A stretch of 64,000 nucleotides of DNA, from positions 1 through 64,000 of the IMG/VR virus record IMGVR_UViG_2832142748_000002, one strand, 5' to 3'. Of this stretch, positions 4,545 to 47,050 are shown one piece after another (the first letter of the stretch is position 1; every line of letters starts with the position of its first letter). The notes under the pieces were generated by a model that saw only the letters and a list, made by a program, of their open reading frames with translations, ran no database searches and was not told the DNA's origin. The stretch is from a virus (Duplodnaviria; Caudoviricetes). A program made the position numbers and the translations under genes.

Positions 4545-4554
4545 GGACGCCACC

Positions 4555-5031
4555 ATGCCCATGGACAGCCTGCTGGCGGAGTTCTCCCGGCTCCACTTTC
4601 CCAACGCACCAGCGACACCCGCGCAGATCTCCGCTTTCGAGGCGCGCGTCGGCTGGAAGCTGGACGAGGAACTGCGCGCCTTCTACCTGCACGCGAACGG
4701 CGGCACCCTCTTCACGCCGCCGCCGAACACGAAGTACTGCTTCCTGTCGCTGGACGAAATTGTTCGGGCACGGGTCGCCATACGTGGAAGAGACCAGGAC
4801 AGCGCGGGCCCCGCATCGCACTTCACCCTGGTGGACATGCAGGACACCAACTTCGTCGTCGTGGACGTAGCGAAGCGGGAGGCCGGACACTACCCTCTGC
4901 TCGACGCCTTCCACGAAACGTACCCGGACGAGGTGCCGCGCATCGCCTCGTCCTTCGAGGAGTTCTTGGAGAAGGCCCTGCGCAGTGGCAACCGCTCCTT
5001 CTGGCTGAGCAGCGAGCCGCCAGAGGAGTGA
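4555..5031 (+). CDS. SMI1/KNR4 (SUKH) immunity protein (copy 1)
   Basis: PATPAQISAFEARVGWKLDEELRAFYLHANGG motif; directly downstream of the toxin. Confidence 0.9.
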   Translation: MPMDSLLAEFSRLHFPNAPATPAQISAFEARVGWKLDEELRAFYLHANGGTLFTPPPNTKYCFLSLDEIVRARVAIRGRDQDSAGPASHFTLVDMQDTNFVVVDVAKREAGHYPLLDAFHETYPDEVPRIASSFEEFLEKALRSGNRSFWLSSEPPEE

Positions 5032-5169
5032 GCACGCCGGGTCCATGGTGGCCCGTCCACTCGCGTGAGCTGTCCGCGCCGTGCCCACCCACGGCAAGAC
5101 GAAGACCCTCCCCGGAGCGGCGACGGAGCGTGTTCCCTCCGTCGCCTTCGCGCTTCACGGAGGGAGGCG

Positions 5170-7788: not shown

Positions 7789-7846
7789 CCGAACTCCGCT
7801 TGACCGGGGGGCCTTGTGAAATTCCGCATTGCTGGAATATCAAGGT

Positions 7847-28502: not shown

Positions 28503-29144
28503 ATGTCAAACTGCCCGCCAAAACCTCGGAAGCGTCGCAATGTTGCCGAGCGATTCTGGGAAAAGGTCCGCAAGGGAGAGGGGTGTTGGGAGTGGGCCCT
28601 TGCCCACCTGCGGGGATATGGGGTCTTCACAGCGAACGGAAAGCACCTGCGGGCGCACCGGGTCGCATGGGAACTGACCAACGGTCCCATCCCAGATGGC
28701 ATGTTGGTCTGCCACCACTGCGACAATCCTGGGTGCGTCAGGCCCGACCATCTCTTCCTGGGCTCAAATGCCGACAACAGCTCAGACAGGGACTCAAAGG
28801 GACGCCAAGCCCGTGGCGCAAAAGTTGTGCCGCTCACCCTCCCACGCGGTGACGAGCACTGGACTCGTCGTCAACCCGATCGCCTGCAGCGTGGTGACGC
28901 GAATCCGTCTCGAAGGCTTCGGGAGAAGCTCAAGCGCGGCGAGTCGCATCCAAAGGCGAAGATCACCCGCGAAGTTGTTCTTGAAATCAGGGCGGCTCAC
29001 GCCGAGGGCGTCTTGGCCAAAGCTCTGGCGGAACGCTTCGGCGTAAGCCGTCATCTGATCTACCGAGTCGTCAAGAAGACGTTATGGGCGCACGTCGTTT
29101 CAGAAAAGCCACCTGAGCCCGGCCCCTGCCATCCGGGTTCCTGA
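28503..29144 (+). CDS. Free-standing HNH (homing-type) endonuclease
   Basis: RFWEKV...CWEW...GYG...RAHRVAWEL..GPIP.GMLVCHHCDNPGCVRPDHLFLGSNADN. Confidence 0.9.
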   Translation: MSNCPPKPRKRRNVAERFWEKVRKGEGCWEWALAHLRGYGVFTANGKHLRAHRVAWELTNGPIPDGMLVCHHCDNPGCVRPDHLFLGSNADNSSDRDSKGRQARGAKVVPLTLPRGDEHWTRRQPDRLQRGDANPSRRLREKLKRGESHPKAKITREVVLEIRAAHAEGVLAKALAERFGVSRHLIYRVVKKTLWAHVVSEKPPEPGPCHPGS

Positions 29145-31824: not shown

Positions 31825-33108
31825 ATGCGAATCATTGAAGAAATCGACAGTGGCGGCTTCGGCAAAATCGAGAAAGTAGAACTCTCAGACGGCACAATCG
31901 CCGCAAGAAAGACTTTCTCACCCAGCGTCAAGGTGGCAACCAATGAGGAGCGCGAGAAGCTAAGAAAACGATTCTGCCGAGAGGTGCGAATTCAGCGCGG
32001 ACTATCGTCCGACCTGTTCCTGCCGGTGCTTGACGCCGATCTTAACGGGCCCGCACCTTGGTTCACAATGCCGCTCGCCGACAAGTCATACATTGAGCAG
32101 ATCGAAGAAGACAAGCAGTCCGGGATCATTACCAGCGAAGCTCTTGCAGACATTCTTAACGGATTAGAGGAACTACACAGGCTTGACTATGTACATCGTG
32201 ACTTAAAACCCGCGAACATCCTTCTTCACGAAGGAACATGGAAACTGGCCGATTTCGGGTTGGCCTTGCCTCCGAACGGAGGGACATCCAGACTGAGTTC
32301 GCAGTATTCAGCGTGGGGCTCAGAACACTATGCAGCCCCCGAACAATACACCGACTTCTCAAACGTTCGACCTTCTGCCGACATCTACTCGTTCGGCTGT
32401 ATTCTTCACGATCTCGTAGCAAACGCGAGCAGAATCCCTTATCAGCGGCAAACCTGTAGCGGGCCGTTCGCCCCAATCATAGAAAAATGCACCGAAACAA
32501 TCCCAACAAAGCGCTTCAAGACAATTAGCGGGCTTCGATCCGCACTTCTAGGTCTCCTCGCTCAGCCGAACAGCATCAAGATCTCTCTCGAATCAGGGGA
32601 GTGGATCAAAGAACTCGACTCAGTCAACACCTGGACAATCGAAACTGTCGCAAACTTCGAGCGCTACTTAAAAACAACCGACACGGAGCAAAAATGGGCC
32701 ATCCTGGATAAGTTCAATGAAGAAACTATCACCATCCTGTCGAAACTCGACCCAGACCTTTGGCTGTCGCTAGGGCTGGTTTATTCCGACTGGGCACGCG
32801 GATCATTCGACTTCTCATACTGCGACGTGGTTGCAGTGCGCCTGCTCGCCATCTTCAAGTCGACAAGCTCACTGGAGCTCAAGGCATCCATTGCGCTTTC
32901 CCTTGCCGAACTTGCATATTCCCACAATCGCTGGTTCGTCATGGAACGACTATTCACGATTTGCGGTCACAGTTGCGACGCAGCCGCAGCCGCTCGAATC
33001 GCTCTTGAGATCCAGGCAGAGGAGTTTCAGAGGCCATTCAAGAGATGTGCAGAGGGAATTCGGCGCACGCCAACCATGTTCCATCCAATTATCGCAGGTG
33101 TCCTCTGA
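31825..33108 (+). CDS. Hanks-type Ser/Thr protein kinase moron
   Basis: SGGFGKI, AARK, VHRDLKPANIL, ADFGLA, YAAPEQ, ADIYSFG; lower GC; antisense to the late operon. Confidence 0.92.
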   Translation: MRIIEEIDSGGFGKIEKVELSDGTIAARKTFSPSVKVATNEEREKLRKRFCREVRIQRGLSSDLFLPVLDADLNGPAPWFTMPLADKSYIEQIEEDKQSGIITSEALADILNGLEELHRLDYVHRDLKPANILLHEGTWKLADFGLALPPNGGTSRLSSQYSAWGSEHYAAPEQYTDFSNVRPSADIYSFGCILHDLVANASRIPYQRQTCSGPFAPIIEKCTETIPTKRFKTISGLRSALLGLLAQPNSIKISLESGEWIKELDSVNTWTIETVANFERYLKTTDTEQKWAILDKFNEETITILSKLDPDLWLSLGLVYSDWARGSFDFSYCDVVAVRLLAIFKSTSSLELKASIALSLAELAYSHNRWFVMERLFTICGHSCDAAAAARIALEIQAEEFQRPFKRCAEGIRRTPTMFHPIIAGVL

Positions 33109-33129: not shown

Positions 33130-33669
33130 CTAGTTCGTTGCCCCAACGGCTCTGTCCTTTCCGACGCCAAGCAACCAGTCGCGAAAGGCGGGCCAGGAGT
33201 CCTCAGTGATGAGTCCGCGTGCGGCAGCGTTCGCCTGCCACTCGCGGATGAGCCCGTCACCGCGCTGGAGCAGCCAGGGCCGCCCGAAGGCGGTCCGCTG
33301 CTCCAGCATGTACTTCTCGAACTCGGCCACCGTCTGCTCGAACGTGGCCAGCGGGTTGAAGACGAGCCAGTCGTAACCCTTGTCCTTCGCGTAGAAGCGC
33401 TCGTCCTGGCCGACCATCTCTACGGTGGAGTACTTCCCCCAGTCGTCGCTGCTGCCGGGGGCCGCGCCCGCGGACTCCAGCTGCACCAGCTCCTGCTCGA
33501 GCGCCGACTTCTTCACCAGCGTGGCGGAGTTCACCTCAGCGGCCGCGCGCGACAGTGCGGCTGAGGCATCGAGCTGCCCCTTGATGCGGGCGATCTCCAG
33601 CCGCAGGTCCCGCTTTCGGGCCTCGTTGGCGTTGATGGTGTAGACGTCGCTCTGCGTGAGGGTGGGCAT
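33130..33669 (-). CDS. Tail-associated hypothetical protein
   Basis: Directly follows the tail fibre gene with a GGAG RBS. Confidence 0.65.
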   Translation of the reverse strand: MPTLTQSDVYTINANEARKRDLRLEIARIKGQLDASAALSRAAAEVNSATLVKKSALEQELVQLESAGAAPGSSDDWGKYSTVEMVGQDERFYAKDKGYDWLVFNPLATFEQTVAEFEKYMLEQRTAFGRPWLLQRGDGLIREWQANAAARGLITEDSWPAFRDWLLGVGKDRAVGATN

Positions 33670-33678
33670 GGCCGACTC

Positions 33679-35814
33679 CTAGATGGGCTGCTTGATGTTG
33701 TGGCTGAGGAGGCCCGCGGACTCGTACGTCCGGGCCCCGTGCACGGTGAGCTTCACGACGGCGCCCTCCCCTTCCGGCGCGACGCGCCGCACGAGCCCCG
33801 GGCGCAGGCCCTCCAGCAGCTCGCCGGGCCGAAGCGCGCGGACCTGCGTCCAACCTGCGAAGCGCCGGTAGACGAGGTGGTTGGGCGTCGCAACCAGGAC
33901 GCGGCCATCCGTCAGCTCCACCCGCCAGCGCGCGGCCCGGTGGCTGGAGGCGGCCGTCACCTCAAAGGTGCCCACCCGGCGCGTGTCCTCGTGCTGGGTG
34001 AGGACGCGCATGCCGGGGCGGATGGACGCCGCAGGCACCTCCTGCCCGTCCTCCAGCGTGATGAGCGTCTCGGGCGCTACGCATGTGCCGCCCGTCCCGC
34101 CGGAGCCGCCGCCGCCGCCACCCGCGGGCGCGCCACTGAAGGGCGAGGTCGTGGACTTCGCGAAGTTGATGCCCAGCCCGGCGCCGAACGTGGGGGTGAA
34201 CCACATGGAGGCGCTCACGCCGTAGACGCCGTGCACCTCGCACAGGAGCGCGACGTACTCTCCCAGGTTCTGGCCGTAGAGCCCCGAGAGGGCCGCCGGG
34301 TACTGGAAGGTGTGGGTGATGGCGATGCGGTTGACCGCGTTGCCGTCCACTGCGGCGGCGTACTTCCGGTCCGCGAGGGTGATGTAGCGCGTGCCCCGGT
34401 ACGTGGCGCTGACGCTGCTGTAGTAGTCCACCTTGAGGTAGCGGAGCGCGTCGAGGTTGTCGTCGATGCTGGAGGGCTGGATGAAGAAGTGGTGCACCAG
34501 CCAGGAGTGGACGATGGGCGTCGTGTACCGGAAGTAGTCCGTGCACTGGACGTCCAGCCGGTCAATGAGCGGCGCCCCGCCGCGCACGCCCGTGTTGTTG
34601 CTCCCCCGGTAGTGGACGCGCCCCGCGGCCGATGTCCCATCCAGCGCCTGGTTGGCCCGGAAGAAAGGCGTGTCCAACAGGTAGCTACCAATCTGCACGT
34701 TGCCGCCGGCCGCCTTGAAGGCGGTGCCCACGTTGTCTAGCTTCGCCCCGGCGACGGGCACGCCGTTGCCGTCCTCCGCGTAGTTGGACGTCTGGAGGGT
34801 GTTGGCCACAAGCAGGTCGAACGTCACCATCTTCCGCATGGAGATGGCGTCCAGGTACACGGCCTTGCCGGCGTCCGCTCCCACGGCATTGAGCTCGAAG
34901 TACAGCTGCACGCCGGTGCACCCGGCCGGGCACGTGCCCTTCAGCTTCACGCGCTGGTAGCCCGTCGTGAGCGTGACGGCGACGGAGGTGATCTGACCGT
35001 CGTAGCTGCCGCTCGCCCCCTCCCAGAGAAGGAAGAGCGTCGCGCCAGACTGGGCGAGCGCGGCCGAGGACTTCACCCAGGCCTCGGCGTAGAACTGATC
35101 CCCAGCGGTGCACTTGATGCGGCCACCGGGTGCGGTGCTCCGGTAGCCGCCGATGAAGTTGAGGCCCACGAAGCCGCCCCCCACGGGCACGGGCAGCTTG
35201 CGGCACCAGCGCCCCTCCTTCGCGCTGGAGGGCTCCTCCACCAGCCTGTCACCCTCGGGGGACTGGCCCAGTGCGGCCGCGCCGGCTTCCGAGTACCCGT
35301 TGGGCACCAGGTTGTCCGTGGGCGGCAGCAGCAGGTGCGTGAAGCTGATGGCCGCCGCCGCCACCGCGGCGCTGGTGACGGAGCTCGCCGACATGTGCCG
35401 GGCGTAGACGCTCCCCGTCGGCACATTGGAGAGGTCCGCCACTGCCATGGTGAGGGTGTCCGGGTCCGCCACCACGCTACCGCCGAGGACGCGCCAGTTG
35501 CTCTGGCTGCCGTTGGTGTAGAGGGCCTGGACAGCGCACTGCACCTCCGTCGGCAGCTTCAGCTTCAGCGGCGCCACCCACCGTCTCTCGGAGGGGCCGA
35601 ACTTCCGGGGCTCCAGCAGGTAGCTGTCCGTGTTGTTGGGGTCGCTGCCCTCGTAGACGACGACCTGGAAGCCCGCGAGGAGGTGCGCGGGGAGCACCTC
35701 CTCGTGCGTCCAGCGGATGTCCAGGTAGCGCGACTTGACGAGCTGTGGGGAGCGGACGCCGTCCACCTCCCGGTCGTAGACGCCGGCCGCTTCTTCCTGC
35801 TCGCGCGAGCGCAT
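33679..35814 (-). CDS. Tail fibre / receptor-binding protein with a C-terminal Hint domain
   Basis: FN3-like N-terminus, CBM-like segment (NLVPNGYSE), Gly linker, Hint C...ATPNH...LLSHN (33697-34083). Confidence 0.8.
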   Translation of the reverse strand: MRSREQEEAAGVYDREVDGVRSPQLVKSRYLDIRWTHEEVLPAHLLAGFQVVVYEGSDPNNTDSYLLEPRKFGPSERRWVAPLKLKLPTEVQCAVQALYTNGSQSNWRVLGGSVVADPDTLTMAVADLSNVPTGSVYARHMSASSVTSAAVAAAAISFTHLLLPPTDNLVPNGYSEAGAAALGQSPEGDRLVEEPSSAKEGRWCRKLPVPVGGGFVGLNFIGGYRSTAPGGRIKCTAGDQFYAEAWVKSSAALAQSGATLFLLWEGASGSYDGQITSVAVTLTTGYQRVKLKGTCPAGCTGVQLYFELNAVGADAGKAVYLDAISMRKMVTFDLLVANTLQTSNYAEDGNGVPVAGAKLDNVGTAFKAAGGNVQIGSYLLDTPFFRANQALDGTSAAGRVHYRGSNNTGVRGGAPLIDRLDVQCTDYFRYTTPIVHSWLVHHFFIQPSSIDDNLDALRYLKVDYYSSVSATYRGTRYITLADRKYAAAVDGNAVNRIAITHTFQYPAALSGLYGQNLGEYVALLCEVHGVYGVSASMWFTPTFGAGLGINFAKSTTSPFSGAPAGGGGGGSGGTGGTCVAPETLITLEDGQEVPAASIRPGMRVLTQHEDTRRVGTFEVTAASSHRAARWRVELTDGRVLVATPNHLVYRRFAGWTQVRALRPGELLEGLRPGLVRRVAPEGEGAVVKLTVHGARTYESAGLLSHNIKQPI

Positions 35815-35824
35815 GCCCTCCCAT

Positions 35825-38305
35825 TTACGGAGGAGGCGTGGACGAAATCCCCAGGGTAAGGGTGGCAGGCACCGTGGGCACGGACACCACGAGGACGCTC
35901 GCCGCGCTGGTGCTGTAGTTGCCCGAGGTGTCGATGGCCTTCACGTGCACCAGCTGGTTGGTGCCCGGCGCCGGCAGGGCCCATTCGTAGGTGGTGGCTC
36001 GCACCTTGCCGATGAGGCTGCCCACCTCCCAGCTGCTGCCGTAGCGCAGCTCGTAGGTGTCCCGGTCCAGGTCCGGCACCTCCGCCCAGCGCAACGTCGC
36101 GGTGCTTCCGTTGAGGACGCAGGTGAGGCCCGTCACGTTGGAGGGAGGGGCCGCCTTGCCCACCACGGTGTGGCTGGCCGAGGCGTAGGTGGTGACGAGG
36201 CCGTTGAGGACGGCGGCCACCTGGACGGTGTACTCGCCCGGCAGGCAGTCCTGGAGCTCCCAGAAGTGCGTCTGCACCGGTGGCTCCGACGTCCAGTTGC
36301 CGCCCTCGCGCCGCCAGCGCACGCGGTACTCCGTGGCCGTGGCCACCTGCGTCCAGCGGGCCGTCACCATGACCTTCACGCCACCATTCGTCGTCTTGTA
36401 CAGCGACTCGCCCACCGCGAGGCCCGCAGGTGGCGCGGACGAGGGCAGCACGGACGTGGGCAAGGGCTGCAGCTTCACGCCGTGCTCCACCTCCGCGTAC
36501 TTCCCCGGCTCGTGGCGCAGGGCGGTGATTTCGTAGAGGTGCGGCTCCACCTCCGCGACGTTGAGGATGCGCCAGAGGGTGGGCGTCAAGTCGGACGCGG
36601 CCAGCACCCAGACGGCCTGGGGCTGGGGCGCGGCCGAGAAGGGCGTGGCCACCGTGAGGGCCCGGTACGGCGCCGGCGCGAGCGCGGCCAGCGGGCGCTC
36701 CTCCACGGTGCCGTCCGGCAGCACCGCGGAGAGGGCGTACGTCTTCCCTGCTTCCAGGGTGACGTCCGCGTCGAGCTCCACCTGGCTGGCGGTGGCGGCC
36801 ACCACGCGCCCGCCCCACCTGCGCCCGGCGCGGTATGGGTCCTGGAGCTTCACCACGGCGCCGGGGTTGCGCATGGCGCCCTCGAAGCCGGTGCGGAACG
36901 TCACCGTCTCCGTCTCCAGCCTCTCGGTGAGGAGCAGCCACCGGCCCACGCGCTGCGCCTGGCCCCGGGAGGTGCAGCCGAGCGCCACCACCTCGGTGGG
37001 GTTGTAGCCGTAGGTGGCGAGGCCCTCTTCGTCGGTGACGTACTCCTGGGCCACCTTGAAGTGGTTGTCCGGGTCGTTCCAGCTGACGAGGGCCACCGTG
37101 TGGCGTGCGCGCTTGCCGCTGGAGGCATACGTGAAGAGGCCCTCCACCACGTTGGCCGGCGTGAAGAGGTACTCGGCGTCGCGCGGCGCGTCCTGGGCGA
37201 CGAAGACGGCGCCGGAGGCCCAGTACGTCATGCCGCGGAAGACGGACGCGAGGTTGTTGATGACCTTGTACGCGTCCTCCTGCGTCTGGAGGTAGAGGTT
37301 GCAGCGGAAGCGCGGCTCCATGCCGCCCTTCCCGTCCGGCACCAACTCGTCGCAGTACTTCCCCACCGTGTAGAGGCCCCATTTGTCCACGGCGGCCTCG
37401 TTGAGGTAGCGGCCCAGGCCGTAGCGCTTCGTCGTCAGCAAGTCGTAGAAGCACCAGGCCGGGTTGTCCGTCCAGGCCACCTTCCACGTGCCGTCCCAGG
37501 TGCCCTCGTACGTCCGGGCCACGGGGTTGTAGTTGCTGGGCACGCGCACCCGCAGCCCGCGAATCCGGTAGCTGCGCGTGGGGATGCTGCTGAACTGGCT
37601 CGCCGGCACCTGCAGCGCGCAGAGGGCGGTGTTGGGGAAGGAGAGCTTCTCGTCCAGCAGCGTTGCGTAGGACTTCCAGAGGACCTTGTTCTGCTTCGTG
37701 ACGCTGTCGGCCTCCTCGCTGACGCGCGTGACGCGGATGTCCCACGGGGGCGAGCCCGTCAGCTCCACGCGGAAGGTGCGCTCGTAGGGGCTGGTGCACT
37801 TCCCGCGGAAGAGCTCCGCGCCCTGGAAGGACTGCTCCACGTAGCCGCCGCCGTTGCTCTGCACGGCGATGGAGACGAGGACGCGGGTGGGCAGCAGGTC
37901 GCCCGTCGTCGGATCCTGGTAGGTGAGCTGGGGCGCCTGGAGGGTGACGCGCACGGCGTCCACCCCCGGGTCCGTCACGGTGCGCACCACCGGGGTTGCG
38001 TGCTTCACCTCCACGCCCACGGAGTACTCCGCCTCGCCGGACGGGAAGCCGGGGATGTACTCCTGGGACTGCGTGCCGCGCACGTCGTAGACGGTGACGC
38101 CGGTGAAGTTGAAGGTGCCGTCGGGATTCTGGATGGCGACGCCGTCCAGGTAGACGGACTTCAGCCCGTCGACGAGGCCCTGAATCTCCCCCTCGCACAG
38201 CAGGTCCAACACGCGCGCCTTGGAGCTGGACTTCAACGTGTTCGGAGACTCGACGGGCGTCCGCTGGGCGCCGCCCTCCCCCTTGCCGCCGCTGCTGCCA
38301 CCCAT
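35825..38305 (-). CDS. Lambda gpJ-like central tail fibre / host specificity protein
   Basis: TPVESPNTLKS...DLLCEGEIQGL...AWTDNPAWCFYDLLT..RYGLG; FN3 repeats. Confidence 0.92.
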   Translation of the reverse strand: MGGSSGGKGEGGAQRTPVESPNTLKSSSKARVLDLLCEGEIQGLVDGLKSVYLDGVAIQNPDGTFNFTGVTVYDVRGTQSQEYIPGFPSGEAEYSVGVEVKHATPVVRTVTDPGVDAVRVTLQAPQLTYQDPTTGDLLPTRVLVSIAVQSNGGGYVEQSFQGAELFRGKCTSPYERTFRVELTGSPPWDIRVTRVSEEADSVTKQNKVLWKSYATLLDEKLSFPNTALCALQVPASQFSSIPTRSYRIRGLRVRVPSNYNPVARTYEGTWDGTWKVAWTDNPAWCFYDLLTTKRYGLGRYLNEAAVDKWGLYTVGKYCDELVPDGKGGMEPRFRCNLYLQTQEDAYKVINNLASVFRGMTYWASGAVFVAQDAPRDAEYLFTPANVVEGLFTYASSGKRARHTVALVSWNDPDNHFKVAQEYVTDEEGLATYGYNPTEVVALGCTSRGQAQRVGRWLLLTERLETETVTFRTGFEGAMRNPGAVVKLQDPYRAGRRWGGRVVAATASQVELDADVTLEAGKTYALSAVLPDGTVEERPLAALAPAPYRALTVATPFSAAPQPQAVWVLAASDLTPTLWRILNVAEVEPHLYEITALRHEPGKYAEVEHGVKLQPLPTSVLPSSAPPAGLAVGESLYKTTNGGVKVMVTARWTQVATATEYRVRWRREGGNWTSEPPVQTHFWELQDCLPGEYTVQVAAVLNGLVTTYASASHTVVGKAAPPSNVTGLTCVLNGSTATLRWAEVPDLDRDTYELRYGSSWEVGSLIGKVRATTYEWALPAPGTNQLVHVKAIDTSGNYSTSAASVLVVSVPTVPATLTLGISSTPPP

Positions 38306-38306
38306 G

Positions 38307-39365
38307 TCAGTCCTCCACCGTTGGGTCCGCCTTCTTCACGTTGTGGCTGAGGAGGCCGTCGGAGACGTAGGTGTGCGCGCCCGCCACGGTGAGGCGTACC
38401 ACCGGCCCGCGCTCACCGCGCGTCACCTGGCGCACCACGCCCGGCCGGGCGCCCACCAGTCGCGTGCCGGCCGCGAGGTGCCGCAGTTCCACCCAGGCGT
38501 CCTCCGTCCGCACGCGGTGGGTGCCGGTGGCCTCCAGGCGTCGGCCGTCCTCCAACTCCAGCAGCCAGCGGACGCCCTCGGCGGGCTCCGCTGCGATGAC
38601 GGGGAAGACGTCCCACTCCAGCGTCTCCTCGTCCTGGGTGCGCACCGCCATGCCCACCTGGACTTCGCCTGCCGGCACTTCCCGGCCGTCCGCCAGGAGG
38701 ATGGGCACCCACGGCGCGGGGCAGGTGCCGCCGCCAGGGGTGGTTCCGCCGACGCCCGTCTGTCCGCTGCCGCTGTTGCCCCCGAAGCCGCCGTCGGACC
38801 ACTCGGTGACGATGCCGGCGGAGACGACGCAGCTGCCCACCTCCATCTCCCCGTAGCAGATGGGCACCGGGTGGCCCTGGGCGAGCGTGTTGACGGGGCC
38901 GTTGAAGACGTAGCTGGGCTTGTTGGCGTCCTTCTCGTCAGGCCCATTCGCGGTGGGCGGGGCGAAGAGGAGCTGGGAGACGCCGCCGGCCATCAGGGAG
39001 ATGCCCGCGGTGATGAGGGGCACGCCCGCGCCGTACCCGTAGACGGAGAGGACGACGCCGGCGGCGATGAGCACCGCACCCGCCACCACCTGGAACCAGC
39101 CGGACTTCGCCCCGGCCAGCGCGGGCATGAGGGTGAGGACGCGCGCGCCGGTGGGCATGCCCAGGTCGTCCTCCCCCACGTCCCGCTTGCCCGCGAAGAC
39201 GTGGTAGCCGGGCTCGCTGTTCTCCGCGAGGTAGCGCCGGAAGCCGTCGCAGACGGCCGAGAGGGCGCGCACCGCCTCCGCAGGCGAGGGCACCGAGAGG
39301 TCCATCTTCCACACGCGCCCGAAGCGCTTCCCCAGCGGACCACCCAGGACGATGGTCGTCAGCAT
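38307..39365 (-). CDS. Lambda gpI-like tail assembly protein with an appended Hint domain
   Basis: LGGPLGKRFGR..SPAEAVRAL...FNGPVNTLAQGHPVPICYGEMEVGS; Hint C...ATGTH...LLSHN (38340-38723). Confidence 0.9.
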   Translation of the reverse strand: MLTTIVLGGPLGKRFGRVWKMDLSVPSPAEAVRALSAVCDGFRRYLAENSEPGYHVFAGKRDVGEDDLGMPTGARVLTLMPALAGAKSGWFQVVAGAVLIAAGVVLSVYGYGAGVPLITAGISLMAGGVSQLLFAPPTANGPDEKDANKPSYVFNGPVNTLAQGHPVPICYGEMEVGSCVVSAGIVTEWSDGGFGGNSGSGQTGVGGTTPGGGTCPAPWVPILLADGREVPAGEVQVGMAVRTQDEETLEWDVFPVIAAEPAEGVRWLLELEDGRRLEATGTHRVRTEDAWVELRHLAAGTRLVGARPGVVRQVTRGERGPVVRLTVAGAHTYVSDGLLSHNVKKADPTVED

Positions 39366-40090
39366 CGGGAGACGTGCCTCACGACGCGCTGGGTGATGCG
39401 CTCCCAGAAGCCGGAGTACGTCTCCCGGCCGGACAGGCGCCCCATGACGTGGTGCAGGAGGACATCCCCGCCCAGGTAGACGCCCGCGTGGTTGGGCACC
39501 GGGGCGCGCAGCTGCATAAGGAGGACGTCATGCTCGCGCAGGGCCTGGCCCGTCACATCCACGAAGCCCGCCCGGCCGAAGCCCTCCTGGTAGAGGTTGC
39601 CACCCTTCGCCCACCAGTCGTCCGGGCGCTCGAAGTCGGGCAGTGCCAGGCCCAGGCGCTCCCGGTAGTAGTCCTGGATGAGGGAGTAGCAGTCCAGGAC
39701 GCCGTGGCTGAAGGTGCGGCCCACCAGCGGCGGCCGGTAGCCGTCCGGGTACCAGAGGCACCAGTGCCCCACCGGCACGTTGAGGATAAGCCAGGGCAGG
39801 CCCCAGCGCTCCATCATCACCCGGTCCGCCTCGCTCGGCTCCGGCGCGGCGTTGGGGTGGGAGTGCACCACTGCCACCACCTCGCCATCCCCTTCCGCCC
39901 GCGCATAGTCCTCGGGCGACAGGACGAAGTGCGCCTGGCCGTCGGCGAGGTTCCGGCAGGGCCGGTACCGCTGGGCGCCTCCAACCAGCACCACGAGGCC
40001 GCAGGACTCGCGGGGATAGTCCGCCTGGGCGTGTGCGAACGCGGCGCCCAGGACGTCATCAGCCAGCGTCAGCCGGCAGGGGTCGACCAT
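39359..40090 (-). CDS. Lambda gpK-like JAB + NlpC/P60 tail assembly protein
   Basis: RESCGLVV, VHSHPNAAPEPSEAD, GVLDCYSL, NHAGVY. Confidence 0.92.
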   Translation of the reverse strand: MVDPCRLTLADDVLGAAFAHAQADYPRESCGLVVLVGGAQRYRPCRNLADGQAHFVLSPEDYARAEGDGEVVAVVHSHPNAAPEPSEADRVMMERWGLPWLILNVPVGHWCLWYPDGYRPPLVGRTFSHGVLDCYSLIQDYYRERLGLALPDFERPDDWWAKGGNLYQEGFGRAGFVDVTGQALREHDVLLMQLRAPVPNHAGVYLGGDVLLHHVMGRLSGRETYSGFWERITQRVVRHVSRC

Positions 40091-40146: not shown

Positions 40147-40974
40147 TCAATGCTGCATCTCGTTGATGACCGCATCCACGAACTGCAGGCGACACTCCGG
40201 AGCGGGATGTTTCGACTGCGCTTCGCCCTCATCACATCGGATTGGCAGAACCAGAGCCGGCTGCTCGCACGAAACGGAATTGATCCCGGCATCGGCAAGA
40301 TCGGCACGGGCGCGCGCAATCATCTTGGCGACAGGCGTATTGGGCGACTCGGCGAGAGCCCGGAGTTCCTCGTTCGTGACAACACCACCGTCGGCGCGCT
40401 TCATGTTTGGCCCTCTCAACCGGAGCATCAGCTGGAAAGAGCATGACTCAACGGAACGCGCGAACAGGCGCGCGCTCTCTTTATCTATTTTATCCTTCGC
40501 CTTTGGCCCGGCCCAGGCCACCCGACAGTCCTTGATGACGGGCCGCTTGAGGAGGAGGCCTCGCACTGTACCGTGGAAGGCAACAAGCTGCCCCTTCGCC
40601 AGCTCCGCGACGGCTTGCATCTGCTCGTCCGGAACAAGGCACATGACAGAGCTCATCATCTCGCCCACGTCCAGCGAGATGACGATGTTATCTGTCGCGT
40701 CCTTGGCAATGTCTTGGATGAGTCCCGTCACCTCCACCTGCTTGCTGCGGTACTTCATGTCCGCTGCCACCTCGTTCTCGGCGTAAGCCTCCCAAAGCTG
40801 GCGCGGGCCCACGAGGATGAGCCCTGGTGCGGCAGGAGCTGGAGGTGGACTGGGAGCCCTGGCGGCTGGGCCCGAGGTATCGCTGGGTGCTGCTGCCACC
40901 TGCTCCGGGGCCCGTCCCGCCTCCTGCTTGCACCCGACTACCGTCAGCACTGCAACAAGCCACCACGCGCGCAT
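40147..40974 (-). CDS. OB-fold (tRNA_anti-like) lipoprotein moron
   Basis: Lipobox VVG-C; YAENEVAADMKYRSKQVEVTGLIQDI. Confidence 0.75.
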   Translation of the reverse strand: MRAWWLVAVLTVVGCKQEAGRAPEQVAAAPSDTSGPAARAPSPPPAPAAPGLILVGPRQLWEAYAENEVAADMKYRSKQVEVTGLIQDIAKDATDNIVISLDVGEMMSSVMCLVPDEQMQAVAELAKGQLVAFHGTVRGLLLKRPVIKDCRVAWAGPKAKDKIDKESARLFARSVESCSFQLMLRLRGPNMKRADGGVVTNEELRALAESPNTPVAKMIARARADLADAGINSVSCEQPALVLPIRCDEGEAQSKHPAPECRLQFVDAVINEMQH

Positions 40975-41067
40975 CGTCCCCTCCAGTGAGACGTGGGAGG
41001 ACAGCACGGGGCACCAGAACGACGCAAGGAGTCGGGCTTGGCGGCGGGCGTCTCTGGAAAGGATGGA

Positions 41068-41580
41068 TCACACCTCCACCAGCAGAACCGCCAGGGCCAG
41101 CAGCCGCTCCCGGACGCGGGCGCGCAGGGTGGCGGCGGCGGCCACGGCACGGCGCCAGGCATTCAGCGCGGCGGACGCCTCGCGCGCCAGCTCCGCCAGC
41201 AGCAGCGGCACGGGACGACGCGACAGATTCGTGGCCTGGGCGCAGTAATCACGTGCGGGACCCGTGCGGCCCGCGCTTCGGTACAGCGTGGCCCGGCGTG
41301 CGAGTAGCTCCGCGCGGGCCTCCCCTGACGCGGCGGACACCAGCCTGCCCAGTGGCTCCAGCCGCTCTGCCTCTTCTTCCGGCGTGCCCGTGCCGGGCGG
41401 AGGCAGCAGGTCCAGCAGCGCCTGTGCCGCCCACGCGTCCAGCGGCCCCTCCGCCAGTAGGCTGCGCAGCGAATCTGCGGCGGCGCTCGCGCGGCCCAGT
41501 GCGAGGCACAGCTAGGCTAGTTCGCGGCGGGCCTGACAGCGGGCGTCGCCCGCCAGCCGGGGTCGCAGTTCCACCACGTC
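41068..41580 (-). pseudogene. Fragment A of a large myxobacterial TPR protein
   Basis: ELRPRLAGDARCQARRELA*LCLALGRA...AWAAQALLDLLPPPGTGTPEEEAERLE with an in-frame TAG. Confidence 0.6.
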
Positions 41581-41611
41581 TCCCACGCCTCGCGCAAGTT
41601 GGCAAGCCGCG

Positions 41612-42541
41612 TCAGATGACCTCGATGGTCGGCTCAGCGTCTTCACCAGTGCCAACTGCGAGAACGCTCCGCCGCCGAGCCGGGTCAGCCTTCGAGCGCT
41701 CCTTCGCAACTTTCTGAACGAGGTCAGCTCGGTGGATGGTCGCGGCCGCTTCCGCCTTCACATCGTTCACGACCACGAGGCCGCAGGACGATGAGAGGTG
41801 ACGGGGCACTCCTTTCACCTTGACCGTCTCCCCGGAGAGCGATGCCAAGGCCGCATGCAGGCGACGCCGTGCCTGTTCCAGCGGAGTCGCTGGCATCACG
41901 ACAACAACCTCATCACCGCCCTTTCTGTAGGCATCGCCCACGTCGGAGACTGCCTTTTCGAGGACATGGAAGAACGCCTTGATGGCCTCATCGCCAGTGG
42001 CGTGATCACCGTCCTCGTTGAATGCCTTGAGCCCGTTCATGTCGAGATAGGCCACAGAAACTGGCGAATCTGCCTGGATATTCATAATGGCGATCGCCAA
42101 GTCACGCTCAGCATAGCGTCCATCGTAAAGGATATCAAAAGGCTCTCGAAGCCGGGTCGCCCGAAGCTCGTCTTGCAGTCGCGCCAATTCCAGTCGACCC
42201 AGGTGGCCCATCTCCAGGCCTACAGTCTGCCCCGACAATAGCCGCCCGACAAGCAATGCCTGTTCTCGGCGGTCTTCGCTCTCCATCTGCTGGGCGAGCG
42301 TACTCGTGTATCGCATGTCGATAGAGTCATAGCCCCTTCGAGTATCGGGGCCATTGAGGATGCCGCGATGAATGAGCGACATCACCATTTGCATTTTTTT
42401 CGCGGACATGAACTCACTCCCGCCCAGAGGGAATGAAACGCTAATCCAGCGCTCCTGCTCAAATCGAGCAAGGAACTGCAACTCGCGGAAACGAGCATCA
42501 TTCACGTAGTCAGCCATGCCGGATGGGTCCTCGTGCGCCAT
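41612..42541 (-). CDS. GGDEF-domain protein (diguanylate cyclase-like) moron
   Basis: AYLDMNGLKAFNEDGDHATGD...AYRKGGDEV; novel N-terminal domain; alternative start at 42517. Confidence 0.85.
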   Translation of the reverse strand: MAHEDPSGMADYVNDARFRELQFLARFEQERWISVSFPLGGSEFMSAKKMQMVMSLIHRGILNGPDTRRGYDSIDMRYTSTLAQQMESEDRREQALLVGRLLSGQTVGLEMGHLGRLELARLQDELRATRLREPFDILYDGRYAERDLAIAIMNIQADSPVSVAYLDMNGLKAFNEDGDHATGDEAIKAFFHVLEKAVSDVGDAYRKGGDEVVVVMPATPLEQARRRLHAALASLSGETVKVKGVPRHLSSSCGLVVVNDVKAEAAATIHRADLVQKVAKERSKADPARRRSVLAVGTGEDAEPTIEVI

Positions 42542-42664: not shown

Positions 42665-43360
42665 CTACCGGATCAGCCCTACCGCCGGAAATCCCCCGTA
42701 CGGAAGCACTGCGGTAGTCCCAAAGCGCAGCTTGCAGCTTGTGAGGCGCTTCCCGCAGCGGTCCTCGGTGGCACTGGACGTCAGCGTATCGTCCAGCTTC
42801 GCTACCGGGGGCCCCGCGTAGCCGCAGCCCTCCCCCCGGTACTCCCAGGGGCACATCTGCGTGATGATGCGCAGGGGGATGCGGACGCCGTCCAGGTCGC
42901 ACTTCGCGGCCAGGCTGAACTCGATGACGTGCTTGTTCTCCACCGTCTTCTGATCCACCACGAATTCGTCGTCCGGGAAGGCATCCAGCGGCGAGGCGGT
43001 GGGGTTGACGCCCCCGGGGTAGTTCACCGCGTCCAGGTAGCGGACGAAGGTGCGCTTCCGGAGGACGCGCGCGCCCAGCAGATCGTTCAAGTCCCGCGCC
43101 ATGGCGCCGATGGTGCCGGCGACGTTGGCGAGCGTCAGGGTGGGCCGGGGCAGCCGGCCCATGCCCGACTTGTCGAAGCCCTTCACCTGGATGGCCCAGG
43201 GCTCGTACGCCATGCCCTGCCAGACGACGGGCCCGCGGAGGCCATTGGTACCCGCGTGGAAGTGGCTGACGCCCCCGCCAGGCAGGTTGGTGGCGTCCAG
43301 GACGAAGAGCTCCACGAGGGCCCCCGCGTCCAGCCTCTGGATGTCGTTGGCGATGCTCAC
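42665..43360 (-). CDS. Lambda gpL-like minor tail protein
   Basis: VELFVLD...WQG.AY.PW..PRPTLTLAN...CPWEYRGEGCGY...CGKRLTSCKLRF. Confidence 0.92.
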   Translation of the reverse strand: MSIANDIQRLDAGALVELFVLDATNLPGGGVSHFHAGTNGLRGPVVWQGMAYEPWAIQVKGFDKSGMGRLPRPTLTLANVAGTIGAMARDLNDLLGARVLRKRTFVRYLDAVNYPGGVNPTASPLDAFPDDEFVVDQKTVENKHVIEFSLAAKCDLDGVRIPLRIITQMCPWEYRGEGCGYAGPPVAKLDDTLTSSATEDRCGKRLTSCKLRFGTTAVLPYGGFPAVGLIR

Positions 43361-43944
43361 CCTGCCTCCTCCTGGAACGTCGCAGTGAAGTCGTAGGCAT
43401 TGAAGCCCTTCGCGGTGCGGTGCCACTCCTCGCACACGACGTGCGCCACCAGTTCGCCCGCGCCGGTGAAGGTGAGCGCCGCCCCAGCGGCTGGCGCCGC
43501 AGTGAAGGTGACGAGACCCGAGGCAGAGAGCACGTAGGCGGTCCCCGCCACCTGGGCGACGCCCGCCACGTAGACGGTGGGCGGCGCCGACCAGTCTGCG
43601 GCGGGCACCAGCAGATGCGGCATCTCCGGGGACAGCGGACGCTGGAGGAGCCACTGTGTCCGCGCCTCGTCTCCCACCCCGAAGGGCTGCGCGGCGACCG
43701 ACCAAGCTGTGTCCGGGGTGACGAACTCGAAGGGCTCGACGCCCGCGCGGGCGCGCAGGAAGGACTCCAGGGCGTCCGCGTCCACCTTCGTGAGGCTGGA
43801 GAACTGGAGGGCCCAGCGCCGCAGGACGGGGTTGAGTCCGTCCCCGGATCGCTGGGTGTAGCCCTCACCGAACTGCGCCTTGCGCACCCGGAGCACCGAG
43901 TCCGCCTGGGCCCCGTAGTCCGGAGTGAAGGGGAAGCGCTCCAT
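43357..43944 (-). CDS. Lambda gpM-like distal tail protein with an inserted beta domain
   Basis: VRKAQFGEGYTQRSGDGLN...FL..RAGVEPF.F; insert QPFGVGD...GLVTFTAAPAAGAALT. Confidence 0.85.
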   Translation of the reverse strand: MERFPFTPDYGAQADSVLRVRKAQFGEGYTQRSGDGLNPVLRRWALQFSSLTKVDADALESFLRARAGVEPFEFVTPDTAWSVAAQPFGVGDEARTQWLLQRPLSPEMPHLLVPAADWSAPPTVYVAGVAQVAGTAYVLSASGLVTFTAAPAAGAALTFTGAGELVAHVVCEEWHRTAKGFNAYDFTATFQEEAG

Positions 43945-45486: not shown

Positions 45487-45804
45487 CTACCTCAACTCGC
45501 GTCGTCGTAACAGCCTGCCCGCGTAGTCCCGCTTGGCGTAGCAGTTCGTTGCCCGGTGTCCTTTGTGGCCGCAGCGGAAGCACACGAAGCCTTTCGCACC
45601 GTGGATGCGGCCGTGGACGCCTCGCGACACCGCAGTGAGGTTCTCCGGCCGGTTGTCCCCCTTGTCGCCGTTGATGTGGTGGACGACTTGCCCCTCTTGG
45701 AGAGGCCCCCCGAGCTTCTCCTCCATCGTGTAGACGTGGACGAACCGCATCCGTCCGTCACGGGCCCGGAACGTCTTGTAGCCGTTCTTCCATCCGAAGC
45801 TCAT
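45487..45804 (-). CDS. Mini HNH nuclease fused to a CCHC zinc knuckle
   Basis: VVHHINGDKGDNRPENL...H...H followed by CFRCGHKGHRATNC. Confidence 0.8.
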   Translation of the reverse strand: MSFGWKNGYKTFRARDGRMRFVHVYTMEEKLGGPLQEGQVVHHINGDKGDNRPENLTAVSRGVHGRIHGAKGFVCFRCGHKGHRATNCYAKRDYAGRLLRRRELR

Positions 45805-45957
45805 GCGGCCTCCTGGGTGCCCACGTGGCGGCAGTGCTACGTGGGGAACCCCAATAGCATACCACAAAAGACCACATTGGACCACCTGCACGAATGAATG
45901 AGCCCCGCATATGCGGAGTAGCCGCTGGGCGGCTGAGTTACTGACGACGCCAAGCTC

Positions 45958-47050
45958 AAGGCGAACGTGGAAGCGCGGCTGGTGCGCGTGGGCGACGCGC
46001 TGGTGGCGCTGGAGAAGGCCGCGCGGCTCGCGCCGGACGCGGCCGTGCTGCTGGACCTGGAGGACCTGAGCCTGCGCTGCGAGCGGCCCGAGCATGCCCG
46101 CAGTGCGCTGGAGTCGCTGCTGTCCACGCTGCCGCGCACCGCGGCGCCGGAGAAGCTGGCGGACGTGCGCGCGCGGCTGGGCCGGGCGTGTGAGCTCCTG
46201 GGCGACCGTGAGGGCGCCATTGCCGCGTACGCGCAGGCGTTCCCGCTGCGGCGGCTGGACGACGTGCGCGCCACTCGGCTGGAAGCCCTCTACACGGAGG
46301 CCGGCGAGATGCAGGCACTGGCCGAGCTATGGGCCACGCGCGCGCAGGCGCTGGCGGGCGCGGACCGGTCGGAAGAAGCGGCGCCGCTGTTCTTCCAGAG
46401 CGCGCGCGCCCTGCTGGAGCGCGGGGAGAAGGCCGCCGCGCTGATGCGCCTGGCTTCCGCGCTGGAGGCGAGCCCCGAGGGACCGCTCGCCGCGGAAGTG
46501 CTGGAGGCCCTGGCCGAGCTGGAGCTGGAGCGCGGCGAGAAGCTGGAGGCGGCGCGGCTGTACGCGCGGCGGGCCACGCTGGTGCCAGAGGCCCGGGCGG
46601 GCGCGAAGCTGCTCTTCCGCGTCGCTGCTGGCCGCGGGCACCAGCCGCGAGGAGGCCTTCCTCGCCGAGGCGCTGGAGCGCGACGCGACGTTCGCGCCCG
46701 CGCGGATCCGCCGGGGCGAGCTGCGGCTGACCACGGATGCCCGCGCCGCGCTGGAGGACTTCGAGGCGGTGCTGGCCCTGCCGCCCGCGGACGTGGATGC
46801 CCCGCGTGAGGCGGAGCGCGTGGCCCTCACGCGCAAGGCCGCCACCGCCGCCGTGCGCGCGAACCGCACGGACGCGGCCCGGCGCCTGCTCGCGGAGTTC
46901 TGCGCGCGCACGCCGAAGGACTTGGACGCGCGGCTTGAGTTGGCCGCGCTGCACCGCAAGGCCGGCGCCAGCCGGGCCCGGGCGGACCTGCTGGCGGAGC
47001 TGTGGCCGCGCCTCGCCGGAGCCGCCCGCTGCCCGCCCTGCGAATCCTGA
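45958..47050 (+). pseudogene. Fragment B of a large myxobacterial TPR protein
   Basis: TPR-like helices, frameshift near 46621, ends DLLAELWPRLAGAARC; abrupt GC rise. Confidence 0.65.

What the first reader, a model, noticed from the sequence alone, without database searches (positions are those of the whole stretch)
33679..34200. Second, paralogous Hint domain at the C-terminus of the tail fibre
Seen: GGSGGTGGT|CVAPET...ATPNH...LLSHN-IKQPI*. By manual alignment it is about 50% identical (64/129) to the gpI Hint, and both are preceded by GGT. Known: many fibres end in an autocleaving Peptidase_S74 intramolecular chaperone. Inference: the Hint may replace S74 as a self-removing folding module, or both tail proteins may expose the same activated GGT end for a shared conjugation reaction.
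Basis: partly seen in the sequence, partly recalled or inferred. Interest (0 to 1): 0.8.

Follow-up and report, generated by a model that had tools for sequence, protein, structure and literature searches.

The report
Self-cutting Hint cap on tail fibre
The tail-tip fibre of a Corallococcus prophage ends in a small intein-like (Hint) domain, an old paralogue of the one on the neighbouring gpI plug protein, that very probably cuts itself off after translation. This end-cap is common on phage tail-tip proteins, but I found no paper saying what it is for.

Summary
The minus-strand gene 33679-35814 (711 aa) ends in a 15-residue Gly-rich linker, a 129-residue Hint domain (C578 to N706) and the 5-residue tail IKQPI. 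This Hint is 49% identical (65/132, E 2e-30) to the Hint that ends gpI (38307-39365).

- **Fold:** the AlphaFold model (pLDDT 93) matches mini-inteins, the Tetrahymena BIL2 domain and a Clostridium BIL domain (TM about 0.85, Z about 20).
- **Catalytic residues:** Cys1, block-B TxxH and the terminal His-Asn are kept. The +1 residue is Ile, so canonical splicing is excluded.
- **The "fibre":** it is really the split-off distal part of a gpJ-type central fibre: FN3, CBM-like sandwich, tip domain, then Hint.
- **Coupling:** that tip domain occurs 23 times in 401 Myxococcota genomes, each time directly followed by a Hint.
- **Family:** it is large (130 cluster representatives at E<=1e-30), sits mostly on phage tail-tip proteins, and nearly always has Lys at +1 or +2.

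Best reading: a type-A-BIL-like, self-removing C-terminal cap. The "shared GGT end" idea is not supported, because residue -1 varies and each Hint also occurs without the other. Lys-mediated transfer or conjugation is not excluded.

The scan has noted this module many times on other DNA. I found no paper describing it.

The parts
33679..35814 (-). Whole gene: 711-aa distal tail-tip fibre protein ending in a Hint (P0001)
   Evidence: ORF list and translation. It starts 10 nt after the gpJ stop. NCBI names its orthologues 'Hint domain-containing protein' in Corallococcus.
35425..35814 (-). N-terminal FN3-like beta domain (res 1-130), probable adaptor to gpJ
   Evidence: The AF2 model is all-beta with pLDDT 72-92. 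The domain is kept in G174, where the rest of the fibre is different. In single-chain relatives it follows other tail parts (P0058, P0112).
34825..35262 (-). CBM4/16/22-like beta-sandwich (res 185-330)
   Evidence: VIA-align Z 10-12 to CBM4-2, CBM16, CBM22, CBA120 TSP4 and Kp7 gp52. Weak PHROG tail-fibre and NCBIfam GTA_spike_fiber hits. Pfam CBM_4_9 in 4/55 relatives.
34120..34662 (-). Tip domain (res 385-565), fold unassigned, always followed by a Hint
   Evidence: It lies directly before the Hint in 59 of 182 collected proteins, including the gpJ fusions P0062 and P0109. It had 23/23 occurrences in 401 Myxococcota genomes with a Hint directly downstream. The Atlas lead Ig_GpJ_C scored 0.80, a lead only.
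34084..34128 (-). Gly-rich flexible linker PAGGGGGGSGGTGGT (res 563-577); predicted scissile bond T577|C578
   Evidence: Translation; pLDDT below 50 for 567-575. Across the family, -2 is Gly in 94/124 and -3 is Gly in 84/124.
33697..34083 (-). Hint domain (C578-N706): Cys1, block B T643-x-x-H646, terminal H705-N706
   Evidence: AF2 pLDDT 93. Foldseek and VIA matches to BIL2, DnaB mini-inteins, Cth BIL and Hedgehog. Invariant columns in A1.
33682..33696 (-). 5-residue tail IKQPI with Lys708 at +2; no +1 nucleophile
   Evidence: Across the family, +2 is Lys in 102/124 and +1 is Lys in 18/124; the commonest tail lengths are 4-5 aa.
38340..38723 (-). Paralogous Hint ending gpI/TAPI (gene 38307-39365), tail VKKADPTVED
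   Evidence: The N-terminal part matches phrog_32 tail assembly protein at 1.6e-55.
35825..38305 (-). gpJ-type central fibre/hub protein (826 aa; lambda J is longer by recollection, not tested here), the probable attachment site of the fibre
   Evidence: phrog_31 at 1.4e-287; Pfam FNIII-A_GpJ and Phage-tail_3. It is fused to mid+tip+Hint in P0062 and P0109.
33130..33669 (-). 179-aa gene translationally coupled to the fibre; function unknown
   Evidence: The RBS AGGAG overlaps the fibre stop. The gene is conserved downstream of fibre-Hint genes in 6 related loci. No Pfam or PHROG hit.

Best explanation
The 711-aa protein is the distal, receptor-side part of the prophage's central tail fibre. 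Its parts are an FN3 adaptor, a carbohydrate-binding-like sandwich and a tip domain. It is made as a precursor with a type-A-BIL-like Hint tethered to its C-terminus by a flexible glycine linker.

After translation, Cys578 attacks the T577-C578 peptide bond (N-to-S acyl shift, helped by T643/H646). The resulting thioester is then resolved so that the Hint leaves, and the mature fibre ends at or near ...GGT. His705-Asn706 cyclisation cuts off the IKQPI tail.

The Hint therefore acts as a single-use, self-removing cap on a trimeric tail-tip component. Until it leaves, it probably keeps the tip domain soluble, masked or unable to assemble. The gpI Hint would do the same for the lumenal plug.

Shown here: domain identity, fold, conserved catalytic residues, family distribution and coupling to the tip domain. 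Inferred: that cleavage happens, where it happens, and what it is for.
For: - Fold and residues: AF2 pLDDT 93; Foldseek TM 0.83-0.87 to BIL2 (6y75/6tmm) and to Ssp and Npu DnaB mini-inteins, 0.85 to Cth BIL 2lwy and 0.80 to Hedgehog 1at0; VIA Z 18-20.
- C1, block-B His and terminal H-N are invariant in A1, A2 and A3. Cys1 is present in 124/124 representatives.
- No +1 nucleophile: Ile here, and S/T in only 10/124. This fits type A BILs, in which cleavage dominates (PMC4031507, PMC7664689).
- Position: the Hint is terminal with a tail of 25 aa or less in 84 of 140 top representatives. The commonest tail lengths are 4-5 aa.
- Host proteins are phage tail-tip parts: Phage-tail_3 20/55, phrog_31 gpJ 11/55, phrog_32 TAPI 5/55, plus Rcc01698_C and PB4_spike. 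A gpJ-like protein on an uncultured gut-phage contig has the same end.
- The tip domain is always followed by a Hint in the genomes searched, 23/23.
- Lambda gpI residues 135-223 form a plug inside the tip lumen (PMC10721106). An extra 14-kDa domain per chain is hard to fit there, which argues for removal of the paralogous cap.
Against: - No experiment or virion proteome exists for any member. Apart from one unverified metagenomic contig, no record in the INPHARED phage collection carries this Hint clade.
- The strict conservation of terminal His-Asn, of a tail of at least 2-4 residues and of Lys at +1/+2 is not needed for simple N-terminal cleavage. It hints at a more elaborate reaction.
- The long flexible linker argues against an S74-like templating role, so the benefit of the cap remains conjecture.
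- Pfam Hint-clan models all score below their gathering cut-offs on this protein.
Confidence: 0.6

Rival explanations
1. The Hint excises itself and joins the two flanks, either by type-A-BIL splicing or by Lys transfer. After the thioester forms and Asn706 cyclises, the alpha-amine of Ile707 or the epsilon-amine of Lys708 attacks the thioester. The mature fibre then ends ...GGT-IKQPI, through a peptide or an isopeptide bond.
For: - Type A BILs can splice without a +1 nucleophile by exactly this aminolysis route (PMC4031507).
- The best structural match, BIL2, forms a Lys epsilon-amine isopeptide (PMC8616854).
- Terminal His-Asn is invariant. A short tail is always kept (only 2 of the 86 tails of 25 aa or less are shorter than 4 residues). 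Lys is at +2 in 102/124 and at +1 in 18/124.
Against: In tested BILs cleavage products dominate over spliced ones (PMC4031507, PMC7664689). No function is evident for adding 4-5 residues to a flexible Gly tail. The tail sequence beyond the Lys is poorly conserved.
Confidence: 0.17
2. Intermolecular conjugation. The Hint-made thioester at T577 is resolved by a nucleophile on another molecule: a Lys of a neighbouring fibre chain, gpJ or gpI, or a lipid or sugar. This would covalently cross-link or modify the tail tip, in the manner of Hedgehog cholesterol transfer or BIL2 ubiquitin-like conjugation.
For: There is precedent in BIL2, which dispenses a ubiquitin-like domain to substrates (PMC8616854), and in Hedgehog (PMC7765530). 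Two tail-tip proteins of one particle carry the module. Six prophage loci in five of the sampled genomes carry the pair 4.6 kb apart.
Against: - The pair is not obligatory: G174 has only the gpI Hint, and G245 has only the fibre Hint, with no gpK/I/J within 9 kb.
- The -1 residue and the linker are not conserved between partners outside Corallococcus.
- There is no sterol-recognition-like or adaptor region after the Hint, only 5 residues.
- No acceptor has been identified.
Confidence: 0.1
3. The Hint is retained in the virion as a structural or adhesive end-domain, and its processing chemistry is not used.
For: No processing data exist. The domain sits at the very tip, where a binding domain could act.
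Against: Every catalytic position is invariant across very diverged members: mean column identity is 10% in A2, yet C, H, H and N are invariant. Retention in the gpI position would put three extra domains in the tip lumen (PMC10721106). The surface of the Hint is not notably variable as a receptor-binding domain would be; fibre orthologues are 85-93% identical.
Confidence: 0.08
4. It is a selfish intein-like parasite, or a decayed remnant of one, with no role for the phage.
For: Inteins are common in phage genes such as portal, terminase and RNR. HNH homing endonuclease genes lie in the same tail operon.
Against: - There is no endonuclease domain, no +1 nucleophile and no real C-extein.
- It is not inserted in a conserved site but appended to variable proteins.
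- The fibre and gpI Hints each sit in well-supported clades of their own across Corallococcus, Myxococcus and Pyxidicoccus.
- It is strictly coupled to the tip domain.
Confidence: 0.05

Closest known systems
Type A bacterial intein-like (BIL) domains, Pfam PT-HINT PF07591 (Amitai 2003 and Dassa 2004 as summarised in PMC4031507; C. thermocellum BIL structure 2lwy)
   Same: HINT fold (TM 0.85, Z 19.6 to 2lwy), Cys1, block-B TxxH, terminal His-Asn and no +1 nucleophile. Both sit in variable, non-housekeeping proteins. Long-tailed relatives of this clade pass the PT-HINT cut-off.
   Different: Here the Hint is the end of the protein, with only 5 residues after it, so there is no toxin or other cargo to release. 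The hosts are phage tail-tip proteins. Lys at +1/+2 is almost universal. This protein scores 15.8 bits on PT-HINT against a cut-off of 27.7.
BIL2 of the Tetrahymena thermophila BUBL1 polyubiquitin-like locus (PDB 6y75/6tmm)
   Same: It is the best Foldseek match (E 2e-11, TM 0.86), with Cys1 and terminal Asn. Its reaction uses a C-flank Lys to make an isopeptide (PMC8616854). That parallels the conserved Lys here.
   Different: Identity is only 17-19%. BIL2 lies between two ubiquitin-like domains, whereas here the N-flank is a fibre tip and the C-flank is a pentapeptide. Whether any Lys transfer occurs here is untested.
Peptidase_S74 intramolecular chaperone domains of endosialidases and tail fibres/spikes
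   Same: A C-terminal, self-removing module on trimeric phage fibres, coupled to particular upstream folds.
   Different: The fold and chemistry are unrelated: by recollection, not looked up here, S74 uses a Ser-Lys dyad and works as a trimer, whereas this is a thioester-forming Hint. No sequence match was found. The Hint is joined by a flexible Gly linker rather than packed on the fibre. This is an analogy only.
Hedgehog C-terminal autoprocessing (Hog) domain (1at0)
   Same: A C-terminal Hint that cleaves at its own Cys1 and releases the N-terminal functional protein (VIA Z 18.4).
   Different: There is no sterol-recognition region after the Hint. The terminal His-Asn present here is an intein/BIL feature, not a Hog feature.
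Canonical class 1 mini-inteins (Npu/Ssp DnaB, Mtu RecA)
   Same: The same fold and blocks A, B and G (TM 0.84-0.86, up to 26-28% identity to Npu DnaB).
   Different: There is no +1 Cys/Ser/Thr and no C-extein to ligate. It is not inserted in a conserved site. The block-F position that is Asp in most inteins is Lys/Arg/Met/Gln here.

Membership tests
HINT superfamily | Hint (Hedgehog/intein) horseshoe beta fold | tested here: met
   AF2 pLDDT 93.1, pTM 0.86. Foldseek E 2e-11 to 9e-9 and TM 0.80-0.87 to BIL2, mini-inteins, Cth BIL and Hedgehog. VIA Z 18-20, rmsd 1.6-2.1 over 123-138 residues.
HINT superfamily | N-terminal Cys/Ser nucleophile and block-B T-x-x-H | tested here: met
   C578, T643 and H646. 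Cys and His are invariant in A1, A2 and A3. Cys1 in 124/124.
Type A BIL domain | C-terminal His-Asn | tested here: met
   H705-N706, invariant in all three alignments. Definition taken from PMC4031507.
Type A BIL domain | No nucleophilic +1 residue | tested here: met
   +1 is Ile707 in the fibre and Val in gpI. Across the family: A 28, V 24, I 22, K 18, L 9, M 9, S 6, T 4, C 0 of 124.
Type A BIL domain | Autocleavage (N- and/or C-terminal) demonstrated | not testable with these tools
   This needs expression and MS. No literature on any member was found.
Pfam PT-HINT (PF07591) | Score at or above the gathering cut-off of 27.7 bits | tested here: not met
   15.8 bits for the fibre Hint and 14.1 for the gpI Hint. 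7/55 terminal-Hint relatives match at E<=1e-3. 3 of 10 long-tailed relatives pass the cut-off.
Canonical intein | +1 Cys/Ser/Thr and a C-extein that completes a conserved host protein | tested here: not met
   +1 is Ile, and only 5 residues follow. NCBIfam intein_Nterm scores 23.9 bits against a cut-off of 24.5.
Hedgehog Hog domain | Sterol-recognition region after the Hint module | tested here: not met
   The protein ends 5 residues after the Hint. Pfam Hint PF01079 scores 16.8-18.3 bits against a cut-off of 29.7.
Peptidase_S74 intramolecular chaperone | Sequence match to the S74 chaperone family | tested here: not met
   No S74 hit at E<=0.01 on the whole protein. The C-terminal fold is a Hint.
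Lambda-type central fibre (gpJ) distal region | Continuity with a gpJ hub and FN3 region | tested here: met
   The gene starts 10 nt after gpJ. In P0062 (1380 aa) and P0109 (1500 aa), gpJ, mid, tip and Hint form one chain. The match to lambda's own Ig_GpJ_C domain is only an Atlas lead at 0.80.

The most novel reading that the evidence does not exclude
The glycine-linker, Hint, His-Asn, x-Lys module may be a thioester-based protein ligation device of phage tails. The conserved Lys at +1/+2, or a Lys on a partner tail protein, would resolve the thioester. The tips of the fibre and of gpI would then become isopeptide-modified or covalently cross-linked without ATP, as Tetrahymena BIL2 does with ubiquitin-like domains.
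Probability: 0.2. Interest if true: 0.85.

Novelty: new variant of a known kind. Interest (0 to 1): 0.6.

Why it matters
Phage fibres are known to mature through separate chaperones or through C-terminal S74 self-cleaving chaperones. A thioester-forming Hint as a routine end-cap of tail-tip proteins (gpJ-type fibres, gpI plugs, GTA-type host-specificity proteins) would be a third, chemically different route.

It is common. There are 130 clusters at 50% identity with E<=1e-30, yet the module is almost absent from the deposited phage records searched (one unverified metagenomic contig), so it has escaped study.

It matters in three practical ways:
- for predicting the mature receptor-binding end of prophage and metagenomic fibres;
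- for expressing such fibres;
- possibly as a source of compact self-cleaving or Lys-ligating tags.

The strict coupling of one tip domain to the Hint gives a clean system in which to test what the cap does.

Tried and rejected
- **Literature:** five full-text searches joining Hint/BIL/intein-like with tail fibre, tail tip, gpJ or tail assembly protein found no description of this module. The phiCbK paper's Hint is a TerL intein. The Iyer/Aravind TAPI paper does not mention a Hint. Dassa 2004 is not held.
- **Deposited phages:** tblastn of the fibre Hint, the gpI Hint and a distant Hint against INPHARED gave one uncultured gut-phage contig and otherwise only ordinary inteins in portal, terminase and RNR genes. 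No virion proteome could therefore be consulted.
- **Tip-domain fold:** Foldseek and VIA on the 711-aa model were dominated by the Hint and the CBM domain. The Atlas gave only a 0.80 lead to Ig_GpJ_C.
- **Word-indexed search with the tip domain:** it found only Corallococcus orthologues, so the coupling test was done by genome search instead.
- **Recent duplication or gene conversion of the two Hints:** rejected, because each sits in its own well-supported clade with orthologues from other genera.
- **A side-fibre (Stf-like) reading:** rejected in favour of a split central fibre.
- **PDB sequence search:** it gave only linker artefacts and weak intein hits.
Full report
**Setting.** The window is a contig of a Corallococcus-type myxobacterium (closest proteins are from Corallococcus; G000:C144). 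On the minus strand it carries a lambda-like siphovirus tail operon:
- tape measure, 47318-51061;
- gpM-like minor tail protein, 43357-43944;
- gpK with JAB and NlpC/P60 domains, 39359-40090;
- a gpI/TAPI homologue, 38307-39365;
- a gpJ homologue, 35825-38305 (phrog_31, E 1.4e-287);
- ten bases later, the 711-aa gene 33679-35814.

**Observation.** The 711-aa protein (P0001) ends with:
- the linker PAGGGGGGSGGTGGT;
- a 129-residue domain that starts CVAPET, holds ATPNH and ends GLLSHN;
- the tail IKQPI and a stop.

gpI (P0002, 352 aa; by recollection about 130 residues longer than lambda gpI) ends the same way, with GGT|CPAPWV...ATGTH...GLLSHN|VKKADPTVED. BLASTP aligns the two ends at 65/132 identities, E 2e-30. 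All coordinates were re-derived by translation.

**It is a Hint.**
- Pfam Hint-clan models (Hint, Vint, Hint_2, PT-HINT, Intein_splicing) all hit weakly and below their cut-offs.
- NCBIfam intein_Nterm just misses (23.9 bits against 24.5), and intein_Cterm just passes on the gpI copy.
- A Hint-only alignment of 20 myxobacterial copies (A1) gave an AlphaFold model with pLDDT 93.1.
- That model matches Tetrahymena BIL2, Ssp and Npu DnaB mini-inteins, the Mtu RecA mini-intein, the C. thermocellum BIL domain and Hedgehog Hh-C, at Foldseek E 2e-11 to 9e-9 and TM 0.80-0.87. VIA-align Z is 18-20.
- Cys1, the block-B His and the terminal His-Asn are invariant in A1, A2 and A3.
- The +1 residue is Ile, so the canonical intein transesterification cannot occur.
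- Taken together, these are the features reviews use to define type A BIL domains, in which cleavage dominates and splicing by aminolysis is possible (PMC4031507, PMC7664689, PMC7765530).

**The family.** A profile of A1, run against 1.84 billion cluster representatives, found 130 proteins at E<=1e-30 and 2015 at E<=1e-10.
- Of the 140 top representatives that could be classified, 84 carry one Hint at the very end (tail of 25 aa or less), 38 have a longer C-terminal region and 18 have tandem Hints.
- In 124 single-Hint representatives Cys1 is universal.
- Position -2 is Gly in 94 and position -3 is Gly in 84.
- Position -1 is variable (G 39, T 25, Y 14, S 12 and others).
- Position +1 is mostly A/V/I/K/L/M, with S or T in only 10.
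- Lys is at +2 in 102 and at +1 in 18.
- The commonest tail lengths are 4 and 5 residues.
- Fifty-five terminal-Hint proteins were scanned. Hits were Phage-tail_3 in 20, phrog_31 (gpJ) in 11, phrog_1101 (tail protein) in 15 and phrog_32 (TAPI) in 5, plus Rcc01698_C, PB4_spike, Phage_Tail_Tip, CBM and collagen.
- On an uncultured gut-phage contig, a 734-aa gpJ-like protein ends GGGY|C...SHN|IKQQEQLQ.
- Long-tailed relatives reach the PT-HINT cut-off.
- So this is a phage-tail branch next to PT-HINT and type A BIL.

**What the "fibre" is.** The AF2 model of the whole protein (pLDDT 73) shows these parts:
- an N-terminal all-beta FN3-like domain;
- a disordered stretch;
- a beta-sandwich at residues 185-330 that matches CBM4/16/22 modules and phage spike and fibre domains (Z 10-12);
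- a beta-rich tip domain at about residues 385-565;
- the disordered Gly linker;
- the Hint.

Local iterative searches among the collected proteins show the tip domain directly before the Hint in 59 of 182. These include P0062 (1380 aa) and P0109 (1500 aa), in which gpJ, mid, tip and Hint form one chain. The window's gene is therefore the split-off distal part of a gpJ-type central fibre, not a lambda Stf-type side fibre.

**Coupling.** Searching 401 Myxococcota genomes with the tip domain alone gave 23 matches in 14 genomes. Every one lies about 35 to 90 nt upstream of a Hint match from the independent Hint search.
- The genomes are related and the query reaches only detectable homologues, so this is not a statistical proof. 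No Hint-less tip domain was found.
- The converse does not hold: Hints also end gpI and many other tail proteins.

**Relation of the two Hints.**
- In a maximum-likelihood tree of 151 Hints (quick search), the fibre copy sits in a well-supported clade (97) with Corallococcus fibre orthologues. That clade lies inside a group of 17 that is nearly all tip-type (support 89).
- The gpI copy sits in a clade (99) of 11 Hints, 7 of them on recognised gpI proteins, the named ones from Corallococcus, Myxococcus and Pyxidicoccus.
- They are old paralogues inherited with their host genes, not a recent duplication.
- Six prophage loci in five of the sampled genomes have both copies 4.6 kb apart.
- G174 has gpK, gpI+Hint, gpJ and a fibre with the same N-terminal domain but no mid, tip or Hint. 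G245 has three mid+tip+Hint genes, and the copy examined has no gpK/I/J within 9 kb.
- In the Myxococcus/Pyxidicoccus loci and proteins examined, the junctions are G-Y|C in the fibre and G-G|C in gpI.
- The shared GGT of Corallococcus is therefore a lineage feature, not a requirement.

**Mechanism.** The most economical reading is a single-use, self-removing cap:
- an N-to-S acyl shift at T577|C578;
- loss of the Hint by hydrolysis of the thioester;
- Asn706 cyclisation that releases the pentapeptide.

For the paralogue this fits lambda, where gpI residues 135-223 form the plug inside the tip lumen (PMC10721106). There is little room there for three extra domains.

What the cap is for is inference. 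It might mask the tip, keep it soluble or time its assembly. The flexible 15-residue linker argues against S74-like templating.

One feature is not explained by plain N-cleavage: the strict retention of His-Asn, of a short tail and of Lys at +1/+2. Two precedents keep a transfer reaction open:
- type A BIL aminolysis (PMC4031507);
- the Lys-isopeptide reaction of BIL2, which is the top structural match (PMC8616854).

I put plain self-removal at 0.6, excision with transfer to the tail at about 0.17, intermolecular conjugation at about 0.1, a retained inert domain at 0.08 and a selfish element at 0.05.

**Novelty and context.** NCBI already labels these proteins 'Hint domain-containing protein', and the fold and chemistry are known, so this is a new variant of a known kind. 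Its use as a routine end-cap of phage tail-tip proteins was not found in any paper searched.

Earlier notes of this scan describe the same module on this prophage's gpI, on sister genomes and on many other phages. My results agree with them and add four points:
- the identity of the fibre as a split central fibre;
- the 23/23 coupling of tip domain and Hint;
- the separate-clade result for the two Hints;
- the evidence against a shared GGT end.

Noticed in passing
window 33130-33669 (-): A 179-aa gene with an N-terminal coiled-coil-like stretch. Its RBS overlaps the fibre's stop codon. It is conserved directly downstream of fibre-Hint genes in six related loci (L005, L006, L011, L014, L027, L018), with no Pfam or PHROG match. 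It may be a fibre assembly factor.
   Followed up: partly
P0045, P0049, P0059, P0080, P0100, P0103; L024 (G170:C16) around 1501: Proteins made of tandem Hint domains joined by only HN-KG(G)-CF (five or more in a row). This is a different sub-branch from the terminal caps, and its purpose is unexplained. The scan has a separate note on such arrays.
   Followed up: no
L034 (G174:C1:7640000-7656000), 4335-9006: A Myxococcus-type prophage with gpK, gpI+Hint and gpJ. Its fibre keeps the window fibre's N-terminal domain (63% identity) but has a different distal part without a Hint. This looks like modular swapping of the fibre end behind a constant adaptor.
   Followed up: partly
L033 (G245:C1:6088500-6100500) and two further copies in G245: Three copies per genome of a roughly 1080-aa FN3+mid+tip+Hint gene. 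The copy examined has no lambda-type gpK/I/J within 9 kb, so it may belong to a different, repeated element.
   Followed up: no
window 40147-42541 (-) and 45487-46095 (-): Non-tail genes are inserted in the tail operon: a GGDEF protein (41612-42541), an OB-fold tRNA_anti-like / Sie-like protein (40147-41007) and an HNH endonuclease (45487-46095). A second HNH gene lies at 28503-29144 (+).
   Followed up: no
window 31825-33108 (+): A Ser/Thr protein kinase gene (Pkinase E 1.9e-26; phrog_2361) lies on the opposite strand just beyond the fibre module.
   Followed up: no
A1 columns 113-125 (window about 33724-33762): The block-F position that is Asp in most inteins is Lys/Arg/Met/Gln in this clade. 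The following x-T-Y motif has His in gpI-type copies but Arg/Lys/Met in fibre-type copies.
   Followed up: no
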